Assembly (NCBI GenBank): GCA_000004985.1
Contig: GG738891.1
Direction: 5' to 3' (one strand)
DNA from: Naegleria gruberi
Lineage: Eukaryota
DNA length: 64,000 nucleotides
Shown one piece after another: positions 6,351 through 57,000 of this stretch; positions within the stretch are counted from its first letter, which is position 1; the number at the start of each line of letters is the position of its first letter. The notes under the pieces are model-generated. The model was not told where the DNA came from. It was given only the letters and a program-made list of their open reading frames with translations, and searched no databases. Position numbers and translations under genes: made by a program.

Positions 6351-6793
6351 TTTTTTTTGAAATTAGAAACTTAAGTTTATGTAGTTTACAATGAAGAATG
6401 GTCCCTGCCATGAAAAATTGGATAGTAATTGCAATTGTTAGTTTTTGGAGTCATCTTAATTTTATTTTAACAAAGAAACAAAAAGACTACAGCACCACAG
6501 GTTCCCAAGTTGTCTCCAACCTCAGTACTGATGTGGCTCGACGATGCTTAACTTCTCAAATCGGACGGGATGAGGTGCATTCATCGTGATATGGCCGTAG
6601 CCATTCAATTACTAGATTTCTGAGTTATAAATCAAAGTTGCAATCAATTTATTTTCGCAACTAAGCTTACCATGCAATTACAAAATAAAGTTGATAGACA
6701 ATTGGTGAAACAGACCTGCCTTTGAAGGATGTAAATCTTTATTGATCATTCCATCAGGTCTCAAAATAATCCTACCCTGGAAAATTAAAAATA

Positions 6794-6866
6794 TGCCGAC
6801 ACCAGGGATCGAACCAGGGACCTTAAGATCTTCAGTCTTACGCTCTCCCAACTGAGCTATGTCGGC
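6794..6866 (-). tRNA. tRNA-Phe (anticodon GAA).
   Basis: The reverse complement reads GCCGACATAGCTCAGTTGGGAGAGCGTAAGACTGAAGATCTTAAGGTCCCTGGTTCGATCCCTGGTGTCGGCA. This is a canonical cloverleaf with a 7-bp acceptor stem, a GTTCGATCC T-arm and a CTGAAGA anticodon loop. Confidence 0.9.
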
Positions 6867-41558: not shown

Positions 41559-41682
41559 TTTTTTATTTTGTTGATTTCTACGCTGTTTGTTTTCGAAATT
41601 GAAGTTGAGATGCTGAAAGTTCTTTGATAATGAAAAACAAACAAGAGTACTAAGTTACAAAAAAGGAAAACTTAAAAGGAAA

Positions 41683-42530
41683 GGGGACCAGTGGGAATCG
41701 AACCCACGGCCTCTCGCACCCAAAGCGAGAATCATACCACTAATTTTTATGAAAGGGATTTGTGAAGAAGGGATCTGTGAGGAAGGGATCCGTTACAAAA
41801 GGGATTCATTGAGAATGTGTTAGTTACTTTCGAATATTTAATTGAAATTTGATCTATATTAAAAAAAATTGCGGAAGGGGTAGTCTCTTTTTTGAAATTA
41901 ATAAAAATATACAATTTTGAAAATTAAAAATCAAGTTTTTTTATTGTTATTTGATGTTTGATTATTTTCTGTAAATTGATTAATTTCACATTTTCTATTA
42001 TGACAATAATGTGAATAATTAACACTTTTTGATGGTTTGTAATTTTGATTCATTTTCTTTTTTAAAATTTAATCTCATTCTAATTTTTAAAAATGTAATT
42101 GTTCATATTATTAAAATGTTATTTTTCTATTTACAATAAATTATTCTATCTCTCTTGAATATTTTTAATAATTGTAAATTTTCTAAAAAAAGGAAATAGA
42201 TAATATTCAATTAAATCCCTTCTAATTTTAAATTTTTTTTTGAGAAAGGGATTTGTGAGGAAGGGATTCATTGCAAAAGGGATCCGTTCTGAAAGGGATT
42301 CATTGAAAAATGGATTCATTATGGATGTGATAGTTTCAAATTTTAATTAATAATATAAAATTAACACAATATTTATTCTATTTATATACATTTCTTTTTT
42401 TGGTAATGGATTTCATTGCAAAAGGGATCCGTTAAAGAAGGGATTCATTACAGAAGGGATCTGTTACAAAAGGGATTCATTGTAAACGTGTTTCATTGAG
42501 AAAGTGTTTCTACCACTAGACCATGGTCCC
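41683..42530 (-). pseudogene. tRNA-Pro (UGG) gene interrupted in the D-arm by a 768-bp insertion. The 5' part is at 42511-42530. The 3' part is at 41683-41742.
   Basis: The 5' part reads GGGACCATGGTCTAGTGGTA. The 3' part reads TAGTGGTATGATTCTCGCTTTGGGTGCGAGAGGCCGTGGGTTCGATTCCCACTGGTCCCC. Joined, they give a canonical 72-nt tRNA-Pro that is very similar to animal tRNA-Pro. The 8-nt TAGTGGTA is present at both junctions as a target-site duplication. Confidence 0.75.
41743..42510 (-). mobile_element. Non-autonomous insertion of about 768 bp inside the tRNA-Pro gene. It is flanked by an 8-bp TSD (TACCACTA on the + strand).
   Basis: There are no terminal inverted repeats. In tRNA orientation the 3' end is A-rich (CATAAAAAT) and abuts the TSD, which is SINE or retroposon-like. 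There is no ORF. Inside are three arrays of direct 15-16-bp repeats with consensus AAGGGATYCRTTR (41751-41830, 42247-42335, 42404-42500). These are separated by very AT-rich spacer. Confidence 0.5.
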
Positions 42531-42787
42531 TTACGTTTAAAATCCATTATATTTAAAATTGGTGCCTATAATACGGACTACATCTATTTTCCTTGTGTGA
42601 TTCATTACAAAAGGATGGCTATTCAAAACTTTAGAAGGTTACAATTTTAAATGTACTTTGCATGTTACTCACTATTTTTAGTGTCCCAATAGATTTCACT
42701 CACATTCTATTGAAGGTGTTGTGAAAAAAAAAGCACCAACAACCAATACCTTTACTAATCGCTCACTGCCAGCAGTTCATTACCAAC

Positions 42788-43789
42788 ATGTTTACCTTCG
42801 AAGACGAAGAAGCTGAACAAGGTTTTCCATTTGAAAACTCAACCCCAGAGCAAATTATTAACCATCTACAAACTCATGACCATCCTGAAACAATCATCAA
42901 TTCTCAACAAGTGCTTATCATGGCTGTTGAGAATTGTAAAGATTGTTATGAACAGGGAGAAGAGGAAGACTACGTGGAATGGTTCAAATTATGTGAATAT
43001 TTAACATCCAAAAGTGGAGTTAATATTAATGTTTGTAGATGTATTGAAGATGACTATGATTATCCATTATCAATTGCCATTGAATCGTGCGATTTAAAAT
43101 TGATAGAATTGATACTCTCTCATGGAGCTGATCCAAATAATGGAGCTGGTTTCAGATGTAGAAATGTAATGATTAACCTTGCAATTCAAGAAGGATCGAT
43201 GGATATTTTGAAATTATTGCTAAAATATGGAGCTGATGTCAACAAATTCAATACAGTGCATTGTGGAAGATTCTCTCCATGGAATTGTGCCTATTCGAAT
43301 CAAGAGTTTGAAATATTGGATTTTCTCCTAAATCTTCCAAATATTTCTCTAAAGAATTCAAGAATTTTTCATGAAGCTTCTGCGAATGGAGATGTGAAAA
43401 TGGTTGAATTATTAATTAAGAATCATTTTCCAATTTTGGATTTGAATCATGGTAATTATTCAACTCCATTATTTGAAGCATGTAAGGGACAATTCGTTGA
43501 AGTTGTGAAATTACTTGTTCCTCTGCCAGGAATTGACATTAATTTGGGAAGCTATTCTGGAAGAATGGAAACACCTTTACAAAATGCAATTCGAAATTCA
43601 AATATTGAAATTGTCAGTTTGCTAATTTCACACGGAGCCATATTTACAGAATCTGATAGTTTGGAAGCACATAATAATGCAGGTATCAATCTTTATCAAA
43701 TCAAACTTCAAACACAACCAGTTTCGCAACTTCAAAAATTGCTACATTCTAACCTTGCACTTTCTGACACCACATTCGAATATCAATAA
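42788..43789 (+). CDS. Ankyrin-repeat protein, 333 aa.
   Basis: Repeated ankyrin blocks are present (PLSIAIESCDLKLIELILSHGADPNN, MDILKLLLKYGADVN, NIEIVSLLISHGA). ATG is at 42788. Confidence 0.6.
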   Translation: MFTFEDEEAEQGFPFENSTPEQIINHLQTHDHPETIINSQQVLIMAVENCKDCYEQGEEEDYVEWFKLCEYLTSKSGVNINVCRCIEDDYDYPLSIAIESCDLKLIELILSHGADPNNGAGFRCRNVMINLAIQEGSMDILKLLLKYGADVNKFNTVHCGRFSPWNCAYSNQEFEILDFLLNLPNISLKNSRIFHEASANGDVKMVELLIKNHFPILDLNHGNYSTPLFEACKGQFVEVVKLLVPLPGIDINLGSYSGRMETPLQNAIRNSNIEIVSLLISHGAIFTESDSLEAHNNAGINLYQIKLQTQPVSQLQKLLHSNLALSDTTFEYQ

Positions 43790-51038: not shown

Positions 51039-54000
51039 TTAAAAGTTCATTGTCATCTTTTTCTTAGGTTGTTTGGCAGCAACTTTCTTTTCTGTCTTGG
51101 CAACAGCTGCTTGTTGTTGTTGTTTTGCAAAATCTTGAATATCCAGTAAAACTGATGAAGGTAAGAGTTGTGAAGTGATTAAGGATTTGAATTGTTCTGG
51201 AGCAACTTTGGTCAATCTGTCAAAACATTGAACTCCAAGAAGGAAGAGTTTGGAAAGGGCATTATTCTTGGCAAATTTAGTTACTTTCACTAACATTGGT
51301 ACAATCATACTCAAATAGCTTTGAATACCTTGAGAAGGTGTATTCAATTCAGCCAAAAGTGAAAAACCAGCCAACAAAATATTGATTGCTGGAGGAGCAA
51401 TCTTATCTGCACCATTAACAACAAGAAGTCTCGATTCTGATGAAAGACTCAGAACAATTTCTTCAGCAATCTTCATAGAATAGAAAACTGAAAGTTTTGC
51501 AAGACCGTTTCTAGCCAAGAATAGAATACCATTCTGAATACCATAAAGTAAGTTGAAAACATTGTCAACTGATTTGGCTTGTTTGATTTGATCAGTTCCG
51601 TGAAGAATTTCAATGTCAGAAGTAATTGCCTTACGAATAGCTGAGACAACATTTTCATGGATTGAAACATCAGAACATAGAGATGAAGAAAGGAAAATAA
51701 ATAATAATTCAACTTCTGGATTGGTAATTAGCTTTCCAGAGGCAACTCTACCAATAATATTTTCAATAGAGGCACTGATTGCTACTTGCCAAATACTGAA
51801 TTTCTCTTCAGCAGAGATGGATTGATCTTTGGATTCACTTTCATTTCTCAATTTTTCGCTTACCTCAATTATGGCTGTTGTGGTATCTAGACCCATGTTT
51901 GATTTGGTGAATTGAATGACTCTACAGGTTGTGTACAACAAAGTTGGGACTACAGCACCAGTAATTGACAAGCCAAAGACTTTAACAATTGTTTTCAAGG
52001 ATTTCATACTATTAGCAATTAAAAGTTTTTGTTCCTTTTCCAATTCAAAAGATCCTAGTTCAAATTCACTGTCTTGTTTGAAGAGATATGGGAAATGAAG
52101 TCTCAATGGCTTTAAGCAAACTTCAGTACTGGTTGTCACAACTGCTTGAGCATTGACTTGATCACTTGAAACAAAGAGAGAAACATCTACACTACTCAAA
52201 ATCTTTTCCAAAAGTTCAAGGCATGCATTATGAAGTTGGAAATGTCTGACTCCTTGAATTTCAATCAATAGCAAGAATACTTCGAAAACTGCTCCAGGAG
52301 CATGGTGATGTTTTTGGAATTGTTTGGTGGCCATTATTTCACCAATAGCTTTAATACACTTGATAGCCTTATCCACATTTCTCTTGTCAGTTCCATATAA
52401 TCCAGAAATTGCAAGACCAATCAATAGAGAATCATTATAGTCAATATCTTCAGCTACAGCTTCAAGACCAGCCTTCTCCTTTGCAAGCGTAATACCATTC
52501 AAAACACTAGCATAAGCTTGCTTGTAGTAGTAGAGTACATTTCTTTCGGTACCTAAAGCAACATAGTAGAATCTGTTAAGATTTTCTTCAGCTTGTTCAT
52601 AAATTGGAGAATATTGATCAGAACTTGATCTGACCAAGATGTTGTCATCCTCTTCGTCTGTTACCACAATTGTCAAGTTGGCAAAATCTTGCAATAAAGT
52701 ATACCAACTAATAAATATATCCTTCATATTTGGTTTAAGGATTTCAATGAGTTCAGTGTTTTGAGTTTCTTGAGCAGCTACATAAATATCAGCAAGAGCA
52801 GCTAATACAGAAACCTTAATCATACAAGTAGTAACCTCACCGCCTGCATTAATAAATAACTTTTCATCAATAACATAATTTACAAGGTAGGAACACATTA
52901 TGGAAAGTAATTTGTTTTGATTTCTAAGCATCTTAGAAGGAATGATTATTGATGAAAGTTGACATGCAACATATACTAGTAGAGGCGAGTTGATTTGTGT
53001 GATAGTTTCACAAACAGCTGTTGTAAATCTAAGTGAATGTTGTTGAAGTAAAACTTCACATGGACTAACTGGATCAAGTACTTCTCCAAAGACATTGTTA
53101 ATATTAATCATTAACACAAGCCCAGCATGTTGAACTGAAATAGTTCCTTTGTTTGTTGCAATAGAACAAATATTGATTATTTTTTCCAAATGATTAACCA
53201 AACAATCCTTGTCAGTATTCTTTAGAGCAACAGCCGCATCAACATGATGTAACTCATCCTTGAGTGTTTCGATAAGTTGTTGTAAACACTTCATGGAGAA
53301 TACCTTTGTTTGCCAACTGAAGGCAACAACTACTGATTTTCTTTCAACAGGAGTATCATCCTTTTCATCAGTATCACTCAACATTACACTTTGACTCTTT
53401 TCTGCTTCTGCTATCTTAGTTTCTGAAGAAACAACTGTAAAAATCAAATTGACCCAATCCTTTGGTGGTATTAATTTGCTTGAAATTAAAGATAAAACAA
53501 TATTCTTAAAGTGATTTTCTTGGTTATTTCCAGAAACATAGCTATCATTTGAACTTTGCGAAAGTGATTGATAGGTGAGAGCTTGTGAAATACTAAAATC
53601 AATTGAATCAATGATTTGGAACAATTCTTCAGGTGAGAAGTATTTAGAAATAAGTTCTGGCCTTTGGTCACAAATAATCTTGATACATTGACCAATCTCG
53701 TTTTGTATGTTTTCTATGTACAATCTTTCCTTCTTTGTGGAGAGTACTTGCTTCAAATATTGAACAATCATTTCAAAATCAGAAATCATATATGGTGTAA
53801 AAATGATAGCTCTTTGCATCAGTCTAACAAATTCAATTAGTAATCCATCGGTAATATCCAATTCAGAGGTGGTTAAAGTGGCATTCATAATGTCAGTAAT
53901 AAAGTATTGGAAAATCTTATCGAATGGAAGATTTCTGAGTTGCAAAAGCTCTGGGCCCAAACCAATCAATGCTCGCATAATTTTACAAACTCCAGTCATA

Positions 54001-57000
54001 ATAGAGGTTGGAGAGTTTGGATTTTCAAAGAGAAGTAAGAACAAGTGTTGAATGATTGACTCAGTGTGAGGCACGAAGGCAACACCATTAGTCTCAATAG
54101 TCTGGTAAATTGATACGATTGAGCTCTTTTGAACGTCTTCTTCTATAATCTTTGAAAGAGCAAGCAAGAAGCTAACTGTTGATGGTAAGGAAGCTCTACT
54201 CTTAAGAGCACCAATGGCTCTATTGACTGAACCGAGAGCTAAAGCTAAACCAGATTTGAGGGCAATATTAGTAGTGAGGATCTTTTCCTGGCAACGCTTA
54301 ACAAGGTCATTGAGTAAAATATCTCCTATAAGTTTACCAAATGAGTGCATACATTCGGCAGCAGCAGCTCTCACAAATGAATCTGAAAACCCTAAAGCAG
54401 CATTCAGAATGGAATGTACTTGGGTGAAAAATTTGTGTTTCCTGTTTTCTTCAATATTTGTCTCTAAATTTCTGAGAATGCAATAAACAGAAGCAACAAC
54501 GTTACTGAAAATGCACAACCCAACATCGGCTGGTCCTGTTTCTTCATCAAGTCTACTTCTTAAAGGTGTTGATGATGGAGAGATGAAGTTATTGGCAAGA
54601 GCTGTTTTGATTTGTTGTACTAAATGTTCAATAATTTGGGTCTTGGAGTTTGGTTTGTGGTAAATAAATAATTTTCCTAACAATCTGATTGAGGAGTCAA
54701 CTAATCTGACAGCCAGTGATGGTAATTTCAAATAAATACTTTCAGAATAGAATAAATTAGAAATATTATCAAATAAAACACAAGCTGCATCTAAACTATC
54801 AACTGATATTGAGGTTACTTTGCTTTCGATTGCTTCCAATTTGACTTTAAGATCAACCATTGAATCAACAAGAGAAGTTCTAACTGGTACTGAATCTGTT
54901 GATGTAGCATCAGCCTCAGCAAATGCCATCTTGGTAACAAAATTGATGACGTGTCTATGTTGAGGTAATTGCAACTTGCTGTCAACAGATGGTACATATG
55001 CAAGCATTACTTCTGGAAGTTTTCCAATCAAGTTAAATAAATTCATCTTGAGTAATCTTATTGAGTATAACCCTATTGAAGTAGTAGATTTAAAGTTGGT
55101 AGGTAAACTAGAGAGCAACTCAATGGTGGAGGAAATATATCCGAAAATCAAGTTCATCTTTTCTGGTGTGAGTAAAGGAGCACAATTAGTAATAAAAACT
55201 TGCAATGAAAGAAGGCAGCAAGCTCTAGATCTGAGTCTATATGTAATAATTTCCTCCTTAGTTGTATAAGTAATAGGTTCTTCATACTTTCCACTCATTG
55301 TTTCATTCCATAATTCGAGAATCTTCTCTAAATTATTCTTTACCCAGTAATCATTGAGAGAAAGAACTGAACAGATAAGTATCCAACAAGATTCTTGTCT
55401 CTTCATAGATACATAAATATCATCAATATCTCGATGAGCTGCTTTACCAAGCAGACATGCTGTATCTAAAACAGCAGAGCACAAACTATGAGAAATAGTC
55501 AAGCTATGTTTGGCAGATACAGTAATTAACGCAGCCAAGGCACATGAATGTCCATGTAACGAATTAGCATAATTTTTGATATTTTCATCCCTCTTGGAAG
55601 CTGTTGCTAATTCACCATGATCAATTTGTACCATGTTCATCAAAGCACTAATTAGACCTGTTGAGTGTGATGGTAAAGCTTCCATGAGTTGCTTAATTGT
55701 CAATGCTCCAACATATCTCACATTTTCAGATGGATATTTAAGACTACATAAAATAGCATCCAAAATAGAATCTCTTTGTTTAGAAACACATTCTCCTAAA
55801 ACTCTACATAATTTTCCTATACAATATAGCACAGTTGTAAAACAACTCTCATTGGACAAAACTGTATGGCCAACAACTAATTGAACTAAATTTGATAGTA
55901 AAGAAAGTCTTCCTGCTTCTGTTAATCTATCAATAAGACCAATACTAATCATTTTAGTTACATAGGTTTGGGCATATTTCTTGTCATTGTTTGTAATGTT
56001 GTTTGAACTGATCGAGATGAGTCCTGTTAAATTTCTTACAATTGTATCCATATTGTTGATAATGACTTCCTCTGGGCATTTAGAGAAGAAATAAATGATA
56101 CATGATGAAATAGCTGCTCTGAGCTCTTTTGTTTGTCCAATTCTTGTGAAAGGTGCTGTAGCAACCATGATGGCATACAGACAAGTGTATTCTTTAGAAC
56201 GTTTGGCTGTACTTCTTGGAGTTGTTCCACCATCTTCATTACCTACGGAATCATAAACACCTGTGTCACTCATACATGATAGTAATAATTGTGCTGTGCT
56301 ATGACTAAACACTTCTCTAACTTCTTCATCCGTTTCCTCCATAGCTTTCAAAGAAATATTAAGAGAAGTTTCAAAGATTTTTAGATTAACATCCGAAGGT
56401 CTCGCATAATTGATAGCAACAGCAAGCATAAGTTGCCCACAAGCTACTTTCACTTGTTTGTTTGTTTCTTGTGTTCCTTTCATAATTAATTTCAAGTATT
56501 CAGTCCACTCATTCTTCACTCTCTTTTTAGAGTTTGCTACAAACTTTGTACATAATAATAACATTGATTCTTTCATCGGATCATCCTATAATAATCATCA
56601 AATATTAAATCCAAATAACAATAAAGTTATAACAATGTTTAAATAATTAATCAAATAATAAAGTATAATAACAATAAATCTATAATCTAACAATTAAAAA
56701 CAACTTACATTCAACTTCCACAATCGTGTAAAGAGGCCATTCATGATCAAATTAAATAAACTTGGAACAAGATGTGATTGTATCGAATAGGCCTCTCCGA
56801 GTATATCCAATAAACAGGAAATTTCGTTCAACTTTTGTGGATTTCTAGCAAGATTGGAGTGTTGTTCAAGTGATTGAATAATACGACTTGATCCGGATGG
56901 AATCAACGATGTTGGATTTATCCTATAAAATCTATTAAAACATCTACACAAAAGTCGTTTCGTGAGAGAAGGATTGCCAATATTTGTCAGAAAAGACACT

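What the first reader, a model, noticed from the sequence alone, without database searches (positions are those of the whole stretch)
41683..42530. tRNA-Pro(UGG) gene split in its D-arm by a 768-bp repeat-bearing insertion with an 8-bp TSD
The two halves are GGGACCATGGTCTAGTGGTA (42511-42530) and TAGTGGTATGATTCTCGC...CTGGTCCCC (41683-41742). Both are on the minus strand. Together they reconstruct a perfect tRNA-Pro. TAGTGGTA is duplicated at both junctions. The inserted DNA has no TIRs and no ORF. In tRNA orientation it ends in an A-rich tail abutting the TSD. It carries three arrays of a 15-16-bp direct repeat (AAGGGATYCRTTR, about 18 copies in all) in a single orientation. This suggests a novel SINE or retroposon-like family, or a satellite-carrying element. 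The insertion lies inside a tRNA coding region rather than beside it. That is unlike dictyostelid tRNA-targeted elements, which insert next to tRNA genes. It should inactivate the gene unless there is unusual processing. The position, D-loop rather than 37/38, argues against a canonical tRNA intron.
Basis: seen in the sequence. Interest (0 to 1): 0.75.

Follow-up and report, generated by a model that had tools for sequence, protein, structure and literature searches.

The report
Repeat-bearing insertion splitting a Naegleria tRNA-Pro gene
A tRNA-Pro gene of the amoeba Naegleria gruberi has been cut in two by a recent 768-bp non-coding insertion that duplicated 8 bp of its target and carries three blocks of a 16-bp repeat; it looks like a small mobile element of unresolved class, and only this one copy could be examined.

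Summary
Bases 42530-42511 and 41742-41683 (minus strand) rejoin through one copy of TAGTGGTA into a 72-nt tRNA-Pro(UGG) that ARAGORN accepts. Between them lie 768 bp of AT-rich DNA (23.7% GC) with no ORF, no terminal or subterminal inverted repeats, no Pfam match and no Rfam match. The DNA contains three homologous ~100-bp blocks. Each is built of 15/16-bp units (AAGGGATYYRTT on the plus strand), all in one orientation, and each ends in an A run.

The window is Naegleria gruberi, not a dictyostelid. The cut separates the A box from the B box by about 800 bp. In tRNA sense the insert has 14 runs of four or more T, so it disrupts the gene and is not an intron. Both gene halves are undamaged, so the event is recent.

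The class is unresolved. The closest known kind is Dada: TIR-less DNA transposons that insert inside tRNA and snRNA genes. However, the TSD is 8 bp, not 6-7 bp. There are no subterminal inverted repeats. No Dada transposase was found in Naegleria.

Copy number could not be tested, because the N. gruberi genome is not in any searchable collection. The window, JGI metagenomes, viral and prokaryotic collections gave no related copy. Retroposition and capture of non-mobile DNA at a break remain live rivals.

The parts
42511..42530 (-). 5' part of tRNA-Pro(UGG): acceptor 5' strand, D-stem 5' strand and D-loop (tRNA nt 1-20). It contains the complete A box.
   Evidence: ARAGORN on the rejoined sequence
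42511..42518 (-). Target-site duplication, copy 1 (TAGTGGTA = tRNA nt 13-20: last base of the D-stem 5' strand plus the 7-nt D-loop)
41743..42510 (-). 768-bp insertion. 23.7% GC, non-coding, no TIR.
42395..42510 (-). Block A. Leader GAAACAC, about 7 units of 16 bp (CTTYYNYAAYGRATCC in tRNA sense), then an A7 run. It abuts the 5' junction.
42339..42394 (-). Spacer 1, about 9% GC
42222..42338 (-). Block B. Leader GAAACTATCAC, about 6 units, then an A9 run. One inverted unit follows at 42203-42221.
   Evidence: (I24)
41841..42221 (-). Spacer 2, about 17% GC. No coding remnant found.
41743..41840 (-). Block C. Leader GTAACTAACAC, about 5 units, ending CATAAAAAT directly at the 3' junction.
41735..41742 (-). 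Target-site duplication, copy 2 (TAGTGGTA)
41683..41734 (-). Rest of tRNA-Pro(UGG): D-stem 3' strand, anticodon arm (UGG), variable loop, T arm with the B box GGTTCGATTCC, and acceptor 3' strand. It is followed by TTTCCTTTT.

Best explanation
Shown:
- A 768-bp non-coding DNA segment was inserted into the D-loop of a functional-looking nuclear tRNA-Pro(UGG) gene of Naegleria gruberi.
- The integration duplicated exactly 8 bp of target.

Inferred from the structure: the target was cleaved with an 8-nt stagger, the segment was joined to it, and the gaps were filled.

Inferred from Pol III biology: the A box stays with the 5' part and the B box is moved about 800 bp away behind many T runs. This gene copy is therefore dead, and the cell relies on other tRNA-Pro copies.

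Inferred and committed to: the segment is a non-autonomous mobile element moved in trans at the DNA level. The enzyme would be a transposase-type protein that recognises the tDNA sequence itself, as Dada transposases do, and not the Pol III complex. The three ~100-bp blocks of 16-bp direct repeats, two of which abut the element's ends, would be its multimeric binding platform.

My probabilities: about 0.7 that this is a mobile-element insertion of some class, and about 0.3 that it is specifically a DNA-level, Dada-like mechanism.
For: - Perfect reconstitution of a 72-nt tRNA-Pro after removing the insert plus one TSD copy, with an exact 8-bp duplication.
- The insert differs in composition from its surroundings: 23.7% GC against about 33%.
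- It carries the only non-coding minisatellites in the window.
- The three blocks are homologous, with 76% column identity. Blocks A and C sit directly at the two termini.
- There are no ORFs, Pfam hits or Rfam hits, as expected for a non-autonomous element.
- Dada transposons are a documented precedent. They are TIR-less, insert at fixed sites inside tRNA and snRNA genes including the A box (TAGCTC/TAGCTCAG in Perkinsus tRNA-Ile and tRNA-Tyr), have TSDs of 6-7 bp with an apparent 8 bp in two families, and have internally deleted non-autonomous derivatives (PMC3706591).
- Recency: both gene halves and both TSD copies are unmutated. By comparison, the neighbouring 125-bp spacer is only 81.5% identical to that of a strain that is 98% identical overall.
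Against: - Only one copy is known, so mobility and target specificity are not demonstrated.
- All repeat units at both ends point the same way, and there are no terminal or subterminal inverted repeats. That is awkward for a DDE transposase, which normally synapses two inverted ends. Even Dada has 7-9-bp subterminal inverted repeats.
- The TSD is 8 bp, not 6-7 bp.
- The termini (GAAAC...AAAAT) do not resemble the published Dada termini.
- A profile of three Dada transposases found Perkinsus and fish proteins but nothing from Naegleria. That search is limited by its word index.
- N. gruberi was available in 2013 but is not in the Dada host list.
- A single random insertion landing in a tRNA gene is not excluded by chance alone.
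Confidence: 0.3

Rival explanations
1. Retroposon. An RNA copy of the element was reverse-transcribed into a staggered nick in the tDNA by a LINE-type enzyme (target-primed reverse transcription). The element would be a composite of three ~100-bp modules, each with a defined 5' end (GAAAC...) and an A-run 3' end.
For: - The architecture is strictly one-directional, with no inverted symmetry.
- The element begins exactly at the start of a module and ends exactly at the A-rich end of a module. Blocks A and B also end in A7 and A9 runs.
- An 8-bp TSD is within the usual range for this mechanism.
- From my own knowledge: site-specific non-LTR elements inside small RNA genes (CRE/SLACS/CZAR in spliced-leader genes) exist in kinetoplastids, which belong to the same supergroup, Discoba. 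SINEs with internal tandem repeats are known in Entamoeba.
Against: - The 3' tail is only CATAAAAAT.
- There is no tRNA-, 5S- or 7SL-like Pol III head. There are 14 T>=4 runs in sense orientation, so transcription would have to come from elsewhere.
- No reverse-transcriptase gene is in the window, and none is linked to this sequence.
- Copy number is unknown.
Confidence: 0.25
2. Not a mobile element. A piece of non-mobile DNA, for example an extrachromosomal circle derived from a complex satellite made of repeat block plus AT-rich spacer, was captured during repair of a staggered double-strand break in the tRNA gene. Fill-in of the overhangs produced the 8-bp duplication.
For: - No hallmark of any transposon class is present: no TIR, ORF, poly(A), LTR or hairpin.
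- The block-spacer-block-spacer-block layout looks like 2-3 monomers of a higher-order repeat.
- No second copy was found in anything that could be searched.
- From my own knowledge: tRNA genes are replication-fork barriers and fragile sites.
Against: - A clean 8-bp duplication with no deletion or filler at either junction is unusual for end-joining capture.
- The insert boundaries coincide with the block boundaries and not with arbitrary points.
- No donor locus is known. The window has no similar sequence.
Confidence: 0.15
3. Site-specific recombinase product. A small circular element carrying the sequence TAGTGGTA recombined with the identical 8 bp of the tDNA through a tyrosine recombinase supplied in trans. 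On this reading the 'TSD' is the shared crossover core, and the one-directional repeat blocks are arm-type binding sites flanking the core in the circle (block C - core - block A).
For: - From my own knowledge: an 8-bp direct repeat matches the 6-8-bp overlap regions of tyrosine recombinases, and arrays of direct repeats beside the core are typical of attP arms.
- The core equals a tRNA loop flanked by the D-stem arms, the kind of site that prokaryotic integrases favour.
- Degenerate DIRS1-like sequences, which encode a tyrosine recombinase, were reported in N. gruberi (PMC3266345).
Against: - The bases flanking the core in the element (AAAAAT / GAAACA) do not resemble those in the tDNA (ATGGTC / TGATTC), so no common core-type binding sites are visible.
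- The integration does not restore the tRNA gene, unlike classic tRNA-targeting integrases.
- There is no recombinase gene in the element or the window.
- No eukaryotic precedent for tDNA integration of this kind is known to me.
Confidence: 0.08
4. Functional split or intron-containing tRNA gene. The 768 bp would be removed from a precursor, or the two halves would be joined in trans, giving a mature tRNA-Pro.
For: Both halves are intact, and together they form a perfect tRNA. Ectopic and multiple tRNA introns exist in the red alga Cyanidioschyzon merolae (PMC3728597).
Against: - There are 14 runs of T>=4 (six of T>=5) in tRNA sense, the first 40 nt into the insert, which would stop Pol III.
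- The A box and B box are about 800 bp apart.
- No bulge-helix-bulge forms at the junctions in a folded mini-precursor.
- The junction-proximal regions share only a 6-nt complementarity.
- The 8-bp duplication is the signature of an integration event, not of an intron.
- The size is about ten times that of any known tRNA intron (my own knowledge).
Confidence: 0.02

Closest known systems
Dada DNA transposons (Kojima & Jurka 2013, PMC3706591; Kojima 2022, PMC8869645)
   Same: They insert inside multicopy small RNA genes, including the A-box region of tRNA genes (TAGCTC/TAGCTCAG in Perkinsus tRNA-Ile and tRNA-Tyr). They have no terminal inverted repeats. They make a short TSD, with an apparent 8 bp in Dada-U1 and Dada-tIA_PMar. 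Internally deleted non-autonomous derivatives exist. They also occur in unicellular eukaryotes.
   Different: The accepted Dada TSD is 6-7 bp, and here it is exactly 8 bp. Dada has 7-9-bp subterminal inverted repeats, one of them mirrored in the target; none is found here. The termini are unlike the published ones. No arrays of 16-bp direct repeats are described for Dada. No Dada transposase was detected in Naegleria, and Naegleria is not a listed host.
Site-specific non-LTR retrotransposons in multicopy RNA genes (R1/R2 in 28S rDNA; CRE/SLACS/CZAR in kinetoplastid spliced-leader genes; Mutsu, Keno, Dewa) and SINEs that ride on them
   Same: They insert inside or beside multicopy RNA genes as a safe haven. 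Their structure is one-directional with no inverted repeats. They make a TSD. The kinetoplastid examples are in the same supergroup (Discoba).
   Different: None is known to target a tRNA coding region. Those elements, or their partners, encode a reverse transcriptase and endonuclease. Here there is no coding capacity, a very weak A tail, and no known partner.
tRNA-gene-targeted retrotransposons of compact genomes (Dictyostelium TRE5/TRE3/DGLT-A, yeast Ty1/Ty3; PMC5006619, PMC5911963)
   Same: They associate with tRNA genes in gene-dense genomes of protists or yeasts.
   Different: Those elements are tethered by TFIIIB/TFIIIC and land about 50 bp upstream or about 100 bp downstream, leaving the gene intact. 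This insertion lies inside the gene, in the D-loop, and destroys it.
MITEs of the hAT, P and Mutator superfamilies
   Same: 8-bp TSD, small size, no ORF, AT-rich, with subterminal short repeats that bind the transposase.
   Different: These superfamilies are defined by terminal inverted repeats, and their subterminal motifs lie in inverted orientation at the two ends. Here there are no TIRs and every unit points one way.
Prokaryotic and archaeal integrative elements that use tRNA genes as attB (tyrosine integrases)
   Same: The target is a tRNA gene, with the crossover at a loop flanked by stem arms. A short direct repeat lies at both junctions. Direct-repeat arm sites lie next to the core.
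   Different: Those elements duplicate the 3' part of the gene so that it stays functional, and they carry their own integrase. They are not known from eukaryotic nuclei. Here the gene is disrupted and no integrase is present.

Membership tests
Dada superfamily | Dada-type DDE transposase (CCCC zinc finger, DDE with DxxH) in the element or in an autonomous partner sharing its termini | tested here: inconclusive
   The element has no ORF above 57 aa and no Pfam hit. A profile of 3 Dada transposases against 5.8e9 proteins gave only Perkinsus, fish and one bacterial-contig hit, none from Naegleria. That search is limited by its word index, and the N. gruberi genome DNA could not be searched.
Dada superfamily | Insertion at a fixed site inside a multicopy small RNA gene | tested here: inconclusive
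   This copy lies inside tRNA-Pro(UGG), at tRNA nt 13-20. Whether the site is fixed cannot be judged from a single copy.
Dada superfamily | TSD of 6-7 bp | tested here: not met
   The duplication is exactly 8 bp, and the bases next to both copies differ. Two Dada families show an apparent 8 bp that the authors reinterpret as 6 bp, so the mismatch is not decisive.
Dada superfamily | [quoted passage not shown] | tested here: not met
   The absence of TIRs is met. There is no inverted k-mer of 7 or more between the first and last 100 bp, and no shared k-mer of 5 or more at equal offsets in element ends and target flanks.
SINE / non-autonomous non-LTR retroposon | Internal Pol III promoter head derived from tRNA, 5S or 7SL | tested here: not met
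   The Rfam E-value scan of 41600-42620 gave no match to these families inside the insert. There are 14 T>=4 runs in sense orientation.
SINE / non-autonomous non-LTR retroposon | Poly(A), A-rich or LINE-matching 3' tail, and a TSD of variable length among copies | tested here: inconclusive
   The 3' end is CATAAAAAT, and the internal blocks end in A7 and A9. A TSD is present. Variation among copies and a LINE partner cannot be tested without the genome.
hAT / P / Mutator MITE | Terminal inverted repeats with an 8-bp (8-10-bp) TSD | tested here: not met
   The 8-bp TSD is met. The ends GAAACACT... and ...ATAAAAAT share no inverted repeat.
tRNA intron (canonical 37/38 or bulge-helix-bulge ectopic) | Position 37/38, or a BHB motif at both junctions; transcribable by Pol III | tested here: not met
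   The position is the D-loop. The MFE fold of a mini-precursor shows no BHB. There are 14 T>=4 runs, the first at +40.
tRNA-targeted retrotransposons (TRE, DGLT-A, Ty3) | Integration at a set distance outside the tRNA gene | tested here: not met
   The insertion is inside the coding region.
Any repeat family (mobile element in general) | Two or more dispersed copies with independent flanks | not testable with these tools
   There is no other copy in the 64-kb window. There were no related hits in JGI metagenomes, IMG/VR or prokaryotic genomes. N. gruberi is absent from the contig index.

The most novel reading that the evidence does not exclude
This is one copy of a previously undescribed heterolobosean family of mobile elements. 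The family would home to the D-loop/A-box of tRNA-Pro (or of tRNA genes generally). It would use a protein that binds one-directional arrays of a 16-bp iteron and makes an 8-bp staggered cut. That would be a TIR-less, asymmetric integration mechanism belonging to no current transposon superfamily, in a genome otherwise almost free of transposons.
Probability: 0.15. Interest if true: 0.7.

Novelty: new variant of a known kind. Interest (0 to 1): 0.4.

Why it matters
Elements that home to a fixed site inside multicopy RNA genes are rare. The known cases are R1/R2, CRE/SLACS and Dada. They show how selfish DNA survives in compact genomes, and they are candidate tools for safe-site integration. 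One recent RepeatMasker survey put the transposon content of N. gruberi at 0.28% (bioRxiv 10.64898/2026.06.24.734286), so a recently inserted element here would point to a still-active system. If the element proves multicopy and tRNA-specific, its strictly one-directional iteron arrays would imply an end-recognition logic different from classical transposases. If it is single-copy, it is only a curiosity: one dead tRNA gene.

Tried and rejected
1. Other copies. BLASTN of the insert against the rest of the window gave only AT-rich noise. A two-unit pattern scan of JGI metagenomes gave 5 unrelated hits, of IMG/VR none, and of prokaryotic genomes one unrelated hit.

2. Access to the N. gruberi genome. 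Exact-protein look-ups of two window proteins found nothing, so the genome is not in that index.

3. Empty-site evidence.
- The N. lovaniensis syntenic locus L001 shares neighbouring genes but has no tRNA.
- More distant RBR-gene orthologue contigs L009 and L010 have no tRNA.
- A 98%-identical strain in ERR1078381 (L007/L008) has the same tRNA 3' end at the same place, but both contigs stop inside or at the tRNA. Its insertion state is therefore unknown.
- The ankyrin gene on the other side has no >=90% relative in the protein collection.

4. Dada transposase in Naegleria: none found.

5. Array translations as protein queries. A profile of + strand translations against 1.84e9 proteins gave 12 hits. 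Those followed up, the cluster of P0025, are translations of a 16-bp minisatellite AAGGGATTCATTCCTG. It lies in an intron of a GPCR-like animal gene in marine TARA contigs, with no tRNA nearby. I judged this a coincidence of a 12-mer.

6. Coding or RNA remnants in the insert: no Pfam match and no Rfam match.

7. Origin from the rDNA plasmid (CERE). Its sequence is not in any available collection. The published description, a non-rDNA region of 36.7% GC with repeats of 34-371 bp (PMC5805870), neither supports nor excludes it.

8. Literature. Searches for the motif strings returned only primers. I found no paper on tRNA-inserted elements or ectopic tRNA introns in Naegleria.

9. Extension of the element into the flanks. 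Local alignment of the flanks to the insert is not above shuffles.
Full report
**What is in the sequence.** On the minus strand, 42530-42511 reads GGGACCATGGTCTAGTGGTA, and 41742-41683 reads TAGTGGTATGATTCTCGCTTTGGGTGCGAGAGGCCGTGGGTTCGATTCCCACTGGTCCCC. Joining the two through a single TAGTGGTA gives a sequence that ARAGORN calls as a 72-nt tRNA-Pro(tgg) with a standard cloverleaf. In place, neither ARAGORN nor Rfam at gathering threshold reports a tRNA. Both do report the tRNA-Phe and tRNA-Asp genes elsewhere in the window, and Rfam also reports the 5S gene. The bases next to the two TAGTGGTA copies differ on both sides, so the duplication is exactly 8 bp, and 768 bp lie between the copies. 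In tRNA numbering the duplicated bases are 13-20: the last base of the D-stem 5' strand plus the whole 7-nt D-loop.

**The host.** The 1845-aa ORF at 51039-56576(-) is 100% identical to NAEGRDRAFT_59012. The ankyrin-repeat ORF next to the split gene is XP_002673337 of Naegleria gruberi, on a 339-kb scaffold. The window is gene-dense and about 33% GC. The split gene lies between two ordinary cellular genes. One is an ankyrin-repeat gene (42788-43789, +). The other is an RBR/IBR E3-ligase-like gene (41558-40278, -). No transposon-type gene was seen among the ten largest ORFs I scanned between 31 and 51 kb.

**Anatomy of the insert.**
- It is 23.7% GC.
- It has three blocks: A (42510-42395), B (42338-42222) and C (41840-41743), in tRNA orientation.
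- The blocks are homologous to one another, with 76% column identity. Each starts with a GAAAC/GTAAC...CAC leader and continues with 5-7 units of 15/16 bp. The unit is CTTYYNYAAYGRATCC in tRNA sense and AAGGGATYYRTT on the + strand. There is a 32-bp super-period. Each block ends in an A run (A7, A9, and A5 within CATAAAAAT).
- The blocks are 33-37% GC. The two spacers are 9% and 17% GC.
- The motif occurs 13 times in the insert with at most 1 mismatch, always on the same strand. It occurs 15 times in the whole window against 1.9 expected, and none of 100 shuffles reached 15.
- No other non-coding minisatellite exists in the 64 kb.
- Block A starts at the 5' junction, and block C ends exactly at the 3' junction. 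The element's boundaries therefore coincide with block boundaries.
- There are no terminal inverted repeats and no inverted k-mers of 7 or more between the two ends.
- The longest ORF with a start codon is 57 aa. Stop-free stretches have no Pfam match. An Rfam scan at E<=10 gives only far sub-threshold noise.

**Consequence for the gene.** The 5' part keeps the A box (TGGTCTAGTGG). The B box (GGTTCGATTCC) is now about 800 bp downstream. In tRNA sense the insert has 14 runs of T>=4 (six of T>=5), the first 40 nt in. From established Pol III biology (TFIIIC must bridge the A and B boxes; termination occurs at T runs), this gene copy cannot yield a full precursor. A folded mini-precursor shows no bulge-helix-bulge. 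The junction-proximal regions share only a 6-nt complementarity. I therefore reject the intron and split-tRNA readings, at about 2% probability.

**Age.** A metagenome sample (ERR1078381) contains a Naegleria strain 98% identical to the window over 4.5 kb (L007/L008). In that strain the 125-bp spacer between the tRNA and the RBR gene is only 81.5% identical to the window, while the 28 tRNA bases present are identical. At that level of neutral divergence, an old dead gene would have decayed. Here all 72 tRNA positions and both TSD copies are intact. The insertion is therefore much younger than the split between the strains, unless gene conversion maintains the halves. Both contigs of the other strain stop at or inside the tRNA, so I could not see whether that strain carries the insertion.

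**What kind of event.** A perfect 8-bp duplication with no loss or filler indicates an 8-nt staggered cleavage of the target, followed by joining and fill-in. That much follows from the structure. Which enzyme did it is inference.

The closest documented kind is Dada (PMC3706591):
- Dada elements are DNA transposons without TIRs.
- They insert at fixed sites inside U6, U1, 5S and tRNA genes.
- In Perkinsus they insert into the A-box sequence TAGCTC(AG) of tRNA-Ile and tRNA-Tyr.
- They make TSDs of 6-7 bp, with an apparent 8 bp in two families.
- They have internally deleted derivatives.

Membership in Dada, however, is not established, and two features fail:
- The TSD is 8 bp.
- The 7-9-bp subterminal inverted repeats typical of Dada are absent.

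In addition, the termini differ from the published ones. A profile of three Dada transposases retrieved Perkinsus and fish proteins but none from Naegleria.

The strictly one-directional arrangement of all repeat units is hard to reconcile with a transposase that synapses two inverted ends. It fits better with an RNA-mediated or recombinase-mediated mechanism.

- **Retroposition.** This is supported by the modular structure (a defined 5' leader and an A-run 3' end in each block, with element ends in phase with the blocks) and by the lack of symmetry. It is weakened by a five-A tail, the absence of any Pol III head, and the lack of a known LINE partner.
- **Tyrosine-recombinase model.** On this model the 8 bp is the crossover core and the blocks are arm sites. 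The 8-bp length and the loop-between-stem-arms target fit. But the core-flanking bases of element and target are unrelated, the gene is not restored, and no recombinase is present. Only degenerate DIRS1-like sequences are reported in N. gruberi.
- **Capture of non-mobile satellite-like DNA at a break.** This cannot be excluded while only one copy is known.

My probabilities: DNA-level Dada-like transposition 0.30, retroposition 0.25, break capture 0.15, recombinase 0.08, intron 0.02, and something else for the remainder.

**The family claim could not be tested.**
- The insert has no relative elsewhere in the window.
- A two-unit pattern found nothing related in JGI metagenomes, IMG/VR or prokaryotic genomes.
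- The N. gruberi assembly is not in the contig index.
- Syntenic or orthologous loci from N. lovaniensis and more distant Naegleria-like contigs carry no tRNA at this position.
- A profile of translated arrays searched against 1.84 billion proteins gave 12 hits. Those followed up are translations of an unrelated animal intronic minisatellite that shares the 12-mer AAGGGATTCATT.
- One recent RepeatMasker survey put N. gruberi transposon content at 0.28%. The genome paper, as cited in PMC5805870, gives 5.1% repeats. With so few insertions in total, one landing by chance in a tRNA gene is unlikely but not negligible, so target specificity is not shown.

**Verdict.** The structure is real, clean and recent, and it inactivates one tRNA-Pro(UGG) gene copy. 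It is best described as a TSD-forming insertion of a small non-coding element with iteron-like, one-directional repeat blocks. Its class is unresolved. It resembles Dada in target choice and in lacking TIRs, but it fails two Dada criteria. I rate the interest as moderate (0.4). A genome-wide BLASTN, which I could not run, would settle within minutes whether this is a new tRNA-homing family or a one-off.

Noticed in passing
window 6484-6602(-) and 6794-6866(-): A 5S rRNA gene (Rfam 105 bits) lies about 190 bp from a tRNA-Phe(GAA) gene on the same strand. This is a dispersed chromosomal 5S gene paired with a tRNA gene, in an organism whose 18S/5.8S/28S genes are all on an extrachromosomal plasmid (PMC5805870).
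   Followed up: no
window 42599-42614: A solitary copy of the 16-nt array unit (GATTCATTACAAAAGG on the + strand, 15/16 identical to units inside the insert) lies outside the TSD-bounded insertion, 69-84 nt upstream of the tRNA 5' end. Such near-matches occur about 3.4 times per window by chance, and the flank alignment is not above shuffles. Only its closeness to the element is odd.
   Followed up: partly
window 42203-42221: A single unit in inverted orientation (AAATCCCTT on the + strand) lies directly beside block B and can form a hairpin with it (I24; alignment). It is the only exception to the one-directional arrangement.
   Followed up: no
window 42222-42345: Block B is bracketed by the 7-mer AAAATTT (…TTAAAATTT|GAAACT… and …CAAAAAAAAATTT|AAAATT…). 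This could be a TSD of an independently inserted ~110-bp module. In DNA of 9-17% GC it may well be chance.
   Followed up: no
L007 1-4554 and L008 1-2049 (ENA ERZ929261 / Logan ERR1078381): A metagenome sample contains a Naegleria strain about 98% identical to this window over 4.5 kb, with the same tRNA-Pro 3' end upstream of the RBR gene. The intergenic spacer is only 81.5% identical. Both contigs break at the tRNA. The raw reads of this run could show whether the insertion is polymorphic.
   Followed up: partly
L011 2465-2664 and 6540-6822; L012-L015: Marine TARA metagenome contigs carry 16-bp minisatellites (AAGGGATTCATTCCTG, 12.5 copies) that share the first 12 bases and the period of the Naegleria unit. 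They sit in an intron of a GPCR-like animal gene. One member of the protein cluster is seen on 75 contigs. I judged this coincidental.
   Followed up: partly
L002 2560-2700: An unrelated metagenome contig has palindromic arrays (AATCCCTTATAAGGGATTCATTGTTTAAGGGATTCATTG…) built on the same GGGATTCA core. Its origin is unknown.
   Followed up: no
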